Assembly (NCBI GenBank): GCA_951406725.2
Contig: OX597842.1
Span: forward strand, 31,248,001 to 31,312,000
Source of the DNA: Octopus vulgaris
Taxonomy: Eukaryota
Direction of reading: 5' to 3'
DNA length: 64,000 nucleotides
The notes below the pieces were generated by a model that was given only the letters and a program-made list of their open reading frames with translations, was not told the DNA's origin and did not search any database. The translations under genes were made by a program, and so were the position numbers. Position 1 is the first letter of the stretch. The number at the start of each line of letters is the position of its first letter. Of this stretch, positions 53,472 through 55,330 are shown in pieces.

Positions 53472-53734
53472 ACTGCTCAAGGGCATAAGTACCAGTTGCA
53501 TACTGGGGTCGATCTAATCAACTGCACCCCTCCAAAAAAAATTTCAGGCCTTGTGCCCACAGTAGAAAAGAATATTGGTGAATTTCATGAAGTAAGGAAT
53601 ATTTCAAGGGATACAGTGTCCTGATAGTTAACATCTGGCTCAGAAAGTTTACAATTGCAGCGTGGAAGGTGTTTGTAAGCCATTTAAGAAACACACAAAA
53701 ACTGTTTGATTCACTTCAACATTTAAGTTTAATT

Positions 53735-53915
53735 TACTCTTTTACTTGTGTCAGTCATTTGACTGCGGCCATGCTGGAGCACTGCTGGACCCCAGGACTT
53801 ATTCTTTGTAAGCCTAGTACTTATTCTATCGGTCTCTTTTTTGCCGAACCGCTAAGTGACGGGGACGTAAACACACCAGCATCGGTTGTCAAGCAATGCT
53901 AGGGGGACAAACACA

Positions 53916-53981
<66 letters not shown>

Positions 53982-54445
53982 AGTAGTTGAATGAATTATC
54001 TTGTTATGGATAATTCGGTTAACCGATACCTGGGTAGCAAATTCACATCAGAGAAGACACGGTTGAAGTTACGTGCTTTTGTGTGGAAATTTGTATGTTT
54101 TTTTAAAATATATAAATAAATGAAAGAATGGAGTTGAATGACGAATTAACAAAATTCCTTTATTTTCGACATATGTTTCGAAGGCTGCATATTCCTAATT
54201 GCAAAGGAATAAGGAGTACATTATGCCGCTTTCTCACCAGGAAAAGCAAGGAACTTATGTCAACATCAAGATGCACATACCTATATACAACAGGCTTCTT
54301 TCAGTTTTCTTTTACCAAATCCACTCACAAGGTTTTGGTCGGCCCGAGGCTATAGTAGAAGACACTTGTCCAAGGTGCCACGCAGTGGGACTGAACCCAG
54401 AACCATGTGGTTGGTAAGCAAGCTACTTACCACACAGCCACTCCT
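53735..54445 (-). mobile_element. SINE family A split by a Penelope-like fragment (~53980-54285)
   Basis: Tail half 53735-53920, head 54288-54445. Confidence 0.85.
54163..54245 (-). ncRNA. minimal type I hammerhead ribozyme motif (one core substitution)
   Basis: Minus strand ttttc-CTGGTGA-gaaagcggcata...tatgcagccttc-GAAA-CATATG-TC-gaaaa; GUC cleavage triplet; A6 is changed to G. Confidence 0.75.
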
Positions 54446-54720
54446 TCAAAATATTTTCGTCACTTTGAGACCGCGACCTCTTCACTGACAAAATTTTGAG
54501 ATGCAGCACGAAGCTTTGCCAGTGAAGAAGTCGCGGTCTCAAAGTGACGAAAATATTTTGACAAATTAAACTTAAAGTGAATCGAACGGCTTTTGTGTGT
54601 TTCTTAAATGGCTTATAAACACCTTCCACGCTGCAATTGTTTTCGTTTCAGTACATGATCTCAGATCAGGTCACTTGCTATGCAAGTACATCTATGTAAT
54701 TCAGAAAGTTTATTCTGGGT

Positions 54721-54931: not shown

Positions 54932-55330
54932 TGGTATGATCATGTGATGCGTATGGATGAGGACGGCTGTGTAAAGAAGTCCCAGTCTCTGAGAGTGGAG
55001 GGAACCTGTAGAAGAGGCAGACCAATCTGATTTGTCAAGGTTTCTACAGCTGGATGCCCTTCCTAATGCCAGTCCCTCTGAGAATGCTCTGGGTACGTTT
55101 TACGTGCCACCGGCACAGGGGCCAGTCAGGTGGCACTGGCATTGGTCACACTCAGATGATGCTTTTTATGTGCCACCTGCACAGGGGCCAGTCAGGTGGC
55201 ACTGGCATTGGTCACACTCAGATGATGCTTTTTATGTGCCACCAGCAACGGGTGCCAGTCAGGTGGCACTGGCATTGGTCGCACTCAGATGGTGCTTTTT
55301 ATGTGCCACCAGCAACGGGTGCCAGTCAGG
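54932..55330. mobile_element. RTE LINE pieces in opposite orientations
   Basis: Plus strand WYDHVMRMDEDGCVKKSQSLRVEGTCRRGRP (54932-55023) abuts a minus-strand 3' UTR with ~4 tandem ~65-bp units. Confidence 0.7.

What the first reader, a model, noticed from the sequence alone, without database searches (positions are those of the whole stretch)
53640..54712. Palindromic hammerhead-like foldback retroelement with 12-bp TSD
Seen: removing the nested SINE (53735-54445) restores a ~280-bp near-perfect palindrome with a ~60-nt one-sided extension (54641-54700), flanked by the direct repeat tcagaaagttta. Each arm carries a hammerhead-shaped fold, tttg(t/c)ca-GTGAAGA-(g/a)gtcgc..gtgac-GAAA-atat-TT-tgacaaa. 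Both arms have G instead of the conserved C3. Established: Penelope-like elements have pLTRs with minimal hammerheads and often insert as inverted pLTRs with an extension. Inference: a non-autonomous PLE derivative that makes long hairpin RNA, with either a variant or a dead ribozyme core.
Basis: partly seen in the sequence, partly recalled or inferred. Interest (0 to 1): 0.7.

Follow-up and report, generated by a model that had tools for sequence, protein, structure and literature searches.

The report
Penelope hairpin with swapped hammerhead core
This mirror-image stretch is a short footprint of a Penelope-type jumping gene, likely made by copying the start of its RNA onto both strands of one DNA cut; thousands of its relatives carry a self-cutting-RNA motif with two key letters swapped, which is predicted to still work, while this copy's motif is likely dead.

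Summary
The anatomy is real, with corrections. Two head-to-head arms (86% identical), a 60-nt one-sided tail and a perfect 12-bp duplication are present. The 710-bp insert is a SINE that itself holds a second hammerhead repeat, and it splits the left arm's stem I. The arms are the 5' repeat (pLTR) of a Neptune-like Penelope element. Parents with RT and GIY-YIG frames lie elsewhere in the genome, and the tail encodes the ORF start. The family has 6,024 exact core matches, about 92% reading G3:C8, the swap of canonical C3:G8. Homologous older elements and three outside relatives keep C3:G8. This copy is the minority G3·G8, likely dead. In 46 of 46 classable paired insertions one arm ends near +146 and the other near +205. 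Duplications peak at 12 bp, and 37 of 57 arm starts carry an extra G, as expected from copying an mRNA cap. Best reading: both nicked strands are primed on an uncleaved capped RNA. Arms usually share a source (mixed in 5 of 38 pairs). No excess of ends lies at the ribozyme cut site. The structure is a known PLE pattern; a fixed natural G3:C8 core was not found in the papers I could search.

The parts
53640..53651 (+). Left copy of the 12-bp target-site duplication
   Evidence: D15; family duplications peak at 12 bp
53652..53735 (-). Left pLTR arm, outer part; ends at the short site (about +146 of the pLTR)
   Evidence: end classes
53736..54445 (-). Later insertion: abundant SINE-like repeat (label inferred) interrupting the left arm's hammerhead stem I
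   Evidence: many copies in the window; family contigs join 53735 to 54446-54448
53982..54277 (-). Second repeat nested in the SINE's microsatellite; PLE-like ends; hammerhead at about 54163-54245 with a canonical family core (this copy A6>G)
   Evidence: no ORF found in 14 loci
54446..54497 (-). Left pLTR arm, inner part, with hammerhead core G3·G8 (position 3 at 54485, position 8 at 54480)
54498..54498 (+). Extra G before the right arm's first base, not templated by the parent; likely the copied mRNA cap
   Evidence: 37 of 57 such arm starts have G
54499..54640 (+). Right pLTR arm, from the inferred transcription start
54515..54565 (+). Minimal type I hammerhead: G3 (54522), G8 (54527), extra base after A9, 5-bp stem II, palindromic AATATT helix III, predicted cut after 54558
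54608..54700 (+). First 31 codons of the parent ORF (MAYKH...), with one stop in this copy
   Evidence: frame continues in parents L061 and L062
54641..54700 (+). 60-nt tail, the stretch between the short (+146) and long (+205) end sites
54701..54712 (+). Right copy of the 12-bp target-site duplication
   Evidence: D15

Best explanation
The element is one insertion of two head-to-head copies of the 5' repeat of a Neptune-like Penelope retrotransposon, likely made when the element's enzyme nicked both DNA strands 12 bases apart and copied the start of a capped, uncut RNA from each nick. Shown: parentage, the coding tail, paired short and long ends, a 12-bp duplication mode, an extra G at arm starts, and G3:C8 as the family core. 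Inferred: one nick primes near +205 and the other near +146; each copy runs towards the cap about 20 nt before the hammerhead; the two copies are joined and repaired. Both arms usually come from one source RNA or locus, sometimes from two. Because these start sites also exist at the 5' end of the mRNA, short stubs would far outnumber ORF copies. The G3:C8 core likely keeps the 3-8 pair and some protein-assisted dimer cleavage; this copy's G3·G8 core is likely dead, and insertion did not need cleavage.
For: Parents: pLTR-ORF-3'UTR-pLTR in L061-L065. The model's top fold hits are telomerase RTs, and both zinc motifs are present. Ends: 25 short/long of 27 non-redundant pairs in the unbiased sample and 21 of 22 in a second sample, with no same-end pair in either. 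The same asymmetry holds in the sister family (10 of 12 pairs) and the nested repeat (6 of 6). Either arm can be the one that reaches the cap. Duplications are 12 bp in 8 of 17 non-simple cases. An extra G precedes 37 of 57 arm starts, against 3 of 57 one base further out. Five of 22 typed pairs have arms from different subfamilies. Core: 95 of the first 100 listed are G3:C8, and 100 of 100 in the youngest subfamily of 1,846 matches. Canonical C3:G8 is in 55 sister matches and 3 of 57 outside loci. In vitro, a Poseidon protein nicks and extends both strands from two internal RNA sites, single C3G or G8C kills cleavage, the double change partly rescues it, and cleavage is not needed for insertion (PMC11167929, parts 1-2 read).
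Against: 0 of 16 pairs in the second sample had mixed subfamilies, markers were strongly concordant (1 of 16 mixed against 7.7 expected at random), and two pairs shared private variants. A fold-back copy or later gene conversion would also give that. Three long/long pairs occur in the selected sets. The in vitro study saw no strand difference in start site. Formal covariation across 16 hammerheads did not beat shuffles (64 of 500). G3·G8 sits in 6 ORF-linked copies and about 190 matches, so dead cores spread too. Ends at the predicted cut site are not clearly enriched (about 51-75 estimated, controls about 28-35 and about 50). None of the long copies I translated had a complete open frame.
Confidence: 0.7

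Rival explanations
1. Self-priming or fold-back: one cDNA (or an antisense template) snaps back and copies itself, giving the mirror arm; this is the published proposal for head-to-head Penelope repeats.
For: Arms are usually near-identical and can share private variants; small palindromes occur at junctions; proposed in PMC3846280 (Discussion read).
Against: It does not explain why one arm ends at +146 and the other at +205 in 46 of 46 classable pairs, why either arm may be the complete one, the sense-strand extra G, or the five pairs with arms from different subfamilies.
Confidence: 0.17
2. The G3:C8 motif is a relic: G3 was fixed by drift or for another role (RNA dimer site, promoter), and the family no longer self-cleaves.
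For: U at position 17 and weak helix III pairing; G3·G8 in ORF-linked copies of one lineage; no clear excess of ends at the cut site; thousands of copies were made from uncut RNA.
Against: Two changes that restore exactly the 3-8 pair; every other core base kept; stem II 100% paired across 16 motifs; C8 in all 100 listed copies of the youngest subfamily.
Confidence: 0.35
3. A distinct non-autonomous fold-back mini-element (MITE-like or retrozyme-like) that spreads as a unit and makes hairpin RNA.
For: One inverted insertion recurs 7 times on C1; duplications have a narrow length range; tandem pLTR arrays exist.
Against: Those 7 copies share flanks, so they were duplicated with their surroundings; other loci have different inner junctions; 26 of 60 loci are single arms; the ends are internal PLE sites and the tail is coding sequence.
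Confidence: 0.05

Closest known systems
EN+ Penelope-like insertions with inverted pLTR, one-sided tail and TSD (Adineta Pen2a_Av, PMC3846280; PMC8557442 Fig. 2 legend)
   Same: Head-to-head pLTRs, tail on one side that includes ORF codons, short duplication, microsatellite targets.
   Different: Tail 60 nt rather than 30-40; no ORF body between the arms; duplications cluster at 12 bp; short and long ends are strictly paired.
Neptune clade of PLEs (definition from PMC8557442 passages)
   Same: [quoted passage not shown]
   Different: No tree with reference Neptune or Nematis sequences was built, so the clade is assigned by motifs only.
Minimal PLE hammerheads (PMC4209133), including the natural U3-A8 variant
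   Same: Type I, extra base between 9 and 10.1, G10.1-C11.1, short palindromic helix III suited to dimers.
   Different: G3:C8 at the 3-8 pair, which I found only as an engineered rescue in the texts I read (PMC11167929, PMC3884650).
Poseidon PAc of Anolis, in vitro (PMC11167929)
   Same: Two internal RT start sites bounding the tail, both strands nicked and extended, AT-rich targets, uncut RNA as template.
   Different: Genomic copies here pair one short with one long end; the hammerhead lies before the ORF start rather than overlapping it.

Membership tests
EN+ Penelope-like element | Single ORF with telomerase-like RT | tested here: met
   971-aa open frame in L138; top three Foldseek hits are telomerases, E 1e-5 to 5e-5. 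Pfam gave no RT hit for the query itself and only sub-threshold RVT_1 hits in 4 of 12 homologs.
EN+ Penelope-like element | C-terminal GIY-YIG endonuclease | tested here: met
   VY..YIG motif with conserved R, H, E, N across 67 aligned proteins; sub-threshold Pfam GIY-YIG in 1 of 12 homologs.
EN+ Penelope-like element | pLTRs in tandem or inverted arrangement with one-sided tail | tested here: met
EN+ Penelope-like element | Retrotransposition activity of the protein | not testable with these tools
   Young copies 96-98% alike imply recent activity; no assay.
Neptune clade | CX2-5CxxC linker plus CCHH motif | tested here: met
   C486, C490, C493 invariant in 67 of 67; C512 in 67, C517 in 64, H560 in 65.
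Neptune clade | RT groups with reference Neptune elements | not tested
   No reference set was on hand; Nematis is not excluded.
Hydra clade | Absence of the CCHH motif | tested here: not met
   The motif is present (definition in PMC8557442).
Minimal hammerhead ribozyme | Core CUGANGA...GAAA...UH with a 3-8 pair | tested here: inconclusive
   Family: all core bases kept except the swapped, pairing G3:C8. Window copy: G3·G8 cannot pair. Rfam gave no hammerhead match at E<=5.
Minimal hammerhead ribozyme | Stems I and II and palindromic helix III conserved | tested here: met
   76% of cells paired against 25-46% for slid controls; stem II 100%; covariation not beyond shuffles.
Minimal hammerhead ribozyme | Self-cleavage after position 17 | not testable with these tools
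   The genomic proxy was inconclusive.
MITE / DNA transposon | Fixed termini on both ends and no retroelement homology | tested here: not met
   Ends differ by a 60-nt tail, inner junctions vary, and the sequence is a PLE pLTR.

The most novel reading that the evidence does not exclude
A Penelope family has fixed a working G3:C8 hammerhead, the natural form of the classic laboratory rescue, in thousands of copies. Its hairpin stubs record concerted twin priming by a dimeric enzyme: nicks 12 bp apart, one short and one long start site, copying through to the cap, and at times two different RNAs.
Probability: 0.4. Interest if true: 0.7.

Novelty: new variant of a known kind. Interest (0 to 1): 0.52.

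Why it matters
How Penelope-like elements build their inverted repeats and tails, and what their hammerheads do, are open questions. This family gives thousands of natural products with countable signatures (paired ends, 12-bp stagger, cap-like G, subfamily markers) that separate twin priming from the published self-priming model. A fixed G3:C8 core would be natural evidence of selection on the 3-8 pair, and search descriptors that require CUGANGA miss such motifs. The single window copy is itself an old, decayed insertion with no sign of function.

Tried and rejected
Rfam: no hammerhead match. ARAGORN: no tRNA. PDB by sequence: none for the single protein, two weak RT hits for the profile. 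No PLE ORF in the window itself. G3·G8 as a preserved intermediate between C3:G8 and G3:C8: not supported, because the G8 copies fall in one derived clade (98/100) mixed with C8 copies and basal rows are C8; unlabelled copies were partly left out of these trees. Random pairing of two RNAs: fitted the first sample (6/5/2) but failed in the second. Splice-acceptor reading of the common 5' end: a branch-like motif and AG are present, but the constant upstream part is a single G, which favours a cap. Cleavage seen in genomic ends: inconclusive (classes corrected by eye). General target homology to the RNA: not found. Expression: no RNA holder on record was listed, and the contigs laid cannot show ends or strand. 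No empty-site joint among the joints shown (1,181 not shown). Lünse et al. 2017 (PMC5785218) and Pyatkov 2004 (PMC522041) were not held.

Full report
Observation. The region holds an identical 12-bp direct repeat at 53640-53651 and 54701-54712 and two pairs of inverted segments. Joining the left pieces gives arms of 142 and 137 nt that match at 124 of 144 columns, with a 7-nt gap, followed by a 60-nt extension. The insert 53736-54445 is composite. Its outer parts match an abundant SINE-like repeat (the SINE label is inferred). Its middle, 53982-54277, is a separate young repeat with 2,977 first-look candidates and a canonical hammerhead core in most of its relatives. The SINE splits the left arm's stem I.

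Parentage. The right arm has 2,106 first-look candidates in G000, a 2.8-Gb animal genome. The nearest named homolog of the parent protein is an Octopus vulgaris protein at 57%, so the host is likely an octopus. The sequence after the tail leads to long elements built as pLTR, ORF, microsatellite-rich 3' UTR, pLTR. One copy has a 971-aa open frame but lacks its 5' end; the five long copies translated have stops or frameshifts. An AlphaFold model (pLDDT 87) has telomerase RTs as top fold hits. The C-terminus has a GIY-YIG core, a CX3CxxC linker and the internal cysteine pair, which fits Neptune-type PLEs as defined in PMC8557442 (passages read). The ORF starts inside the pLTR, so the tail is coding, and the peptide resembles that of a sister family.

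The hammerhead. Of 6,024 exact matches with positions 3 and 8 free, 166 lack G3, 128 have G3 with A8 or T8 and about 190 have G3·G8 (205 matches, 94 of the 100 listed strict). That leaves about 5,540 (92%) as G3:C8. The youngest subfamily has 1,846 matches, with C8 in all 100 listed. Contigs from runs labelled as three organisms also read C at position 8 in most depth. A homologous older PLE family has canonical C3:G8 with the same extra base and stem II (55 matches, control 0), and so do 3 of 57 outside loci (control 0). C3:G8 is therefore likely ancestral. Across 16 motifs stem II is fully paired and the structure beats slid controls, but covariation does not beat shuffles. G3·G8, as in both window arms, occurs in 6 of 35 labelled ORF-linked copies, all in one derived clade; it looks like secondary decay, not an intermediate. 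PMC11167929 (parts 1-2 of 4 read) shows that single C3G or G8C kills a PLE hammerhead, that the double change partly rescues it, and that insertion does not need cleavage. Natural U3-A8 is reported (PMC4209133 parts 1-2 read and supplement file 2 searched; PMC3088659 passages). I found no natural G3:C8 in searches, but Lünse 2017 was not held.

How the hairpins form. In 60 consecutive C1 loci, 34 were head-to-head pairs; seven are one insertion duplicated with its flanks. After removing duplicates, 25 of 27 recovered pairs have one arm ending at +138-153 and the other at +195-208, and two are unclassable. A second sample of 40 loci gave 21 of 22. Neither sample has a same-end pair; the selected sets add 14 short/long and 3 long/long. 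The sister family and the nested repeat show the same pattern. Non-simple duplications were 12 bp in 8 of 17 cases, most others 11-14; in the second sample 11, 12, 12, 13, 15, 6 and three not found. Arm 5' ends cluster at -10 to +6 (46 of 83; the sample was chosen for holding the core, which biases this). Where an arm starts at the A before ATGCAGC without parental upstream sequence, the preceding base is G in 37 of 57 cases (a few rows come from the same tandem loci), against 3 of 57 one base further out. That cap copying leaves such a G is recalled from other retroelements; one search found nothing on it for Penelope. The window's right arm has this G at 54498.

One template or two. Five of 22 typed pairs had arms from different subfamilies, differing by several linked changes. 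In the second sample none of 16 did, markers were concordant and two pairs shared private variants. So the arms usually share a source and sometimes do not. The window's arms share G8 but differ by the 7-nt gap and other markers, which is ambiguous.

Cleavage in vivo. Arms starting at the predicted cut (+57) exist: 13-19 of 30 inspected, of 118 matches, or about 51-75 genome-wide (classes corrected by eye). Matched controls at +53 and +76 gave about 28-35 and about 50. This is no clear excess. Sequencing runs were contigs of guessed type and are uninformative.

Verdict. The finding is a real, known kind of PLE footprint (PMC3846280, passages and Discussion read; PMC8557442). Twin priming is the best-supported mechanism against the published self-priming proposal; searches returned no paper whose listing proposes it for PLEs, though earlier notes of this scan reached the same idea in other genomes (not independent evidence). 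The less ordinary parts are the family-wide G3:C8 core, the cap-like G and the occasional mixed arms. Also seen: bioRxiv 10.64898/2026.07.22.740005 (part 1 of 5), PMC2377424, PMC3884650, PMC6155905, PMC6765202 and PMC7761336 (passages only).

Noticed in passing
window 53982-54277 (-); L275-L287: A second young hammerhead-bearing repeat (95-97% alike, 2,977 first-look candidates) with canonical core, long stem II and an 8-nt palindromic helix III; it also makes inverted pairs ending near 173 and 299. No ORF found within 1.5 kb in 14 loci.
   Followed up: partly
window 54701-54712: The duplicated target matches the parent's own next 12 bases at 9 of 12 positions; 60 other junctions match at most 6 (one more is the element itself), so this site may have been chosen by pairing.
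   Followed up: partly
L096-L107, L204-L233: Older sister PLE family with canonical C3:G8 hammerhead, GIY-YIG remnants at about 40-50% identity and the same short/long end pattern.
   Followed up: partly
L153, L155, L183, L184, L186, L187, L190 (C1): One inverted insertion recurs seven times with the same flanks, so it was carried inside a larger duplicated or mobile unit.
   Followed up: no
L004/L031, L012, L032: Tandem arrays of up to eight short pLTR units, retrozyme-like in layout.
   Followed up: no
L141-L143, L237, L242, L243, L267 (C16): ORF-linked copies with G3·G8 cores cluster on C16, suggesting local spread of a lineage with a likely dead ribozyme.
   Followed up: partly
L062:5560-5581: Just before the inferred start lies a branch-point-like motif, a pyrimidine tract and AG; it may be a splice acceptor, a promoter element or both.
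   Followed up: partly
window 53542-53677: The left junction is present with one difference in runs X17 and X18, labelled as different organisms, so the insertion is likely old.
   Followed up: no
window 55115-55330: Three to four tandem 66-67-nt units at 90-96% identity.
   Followed up: no
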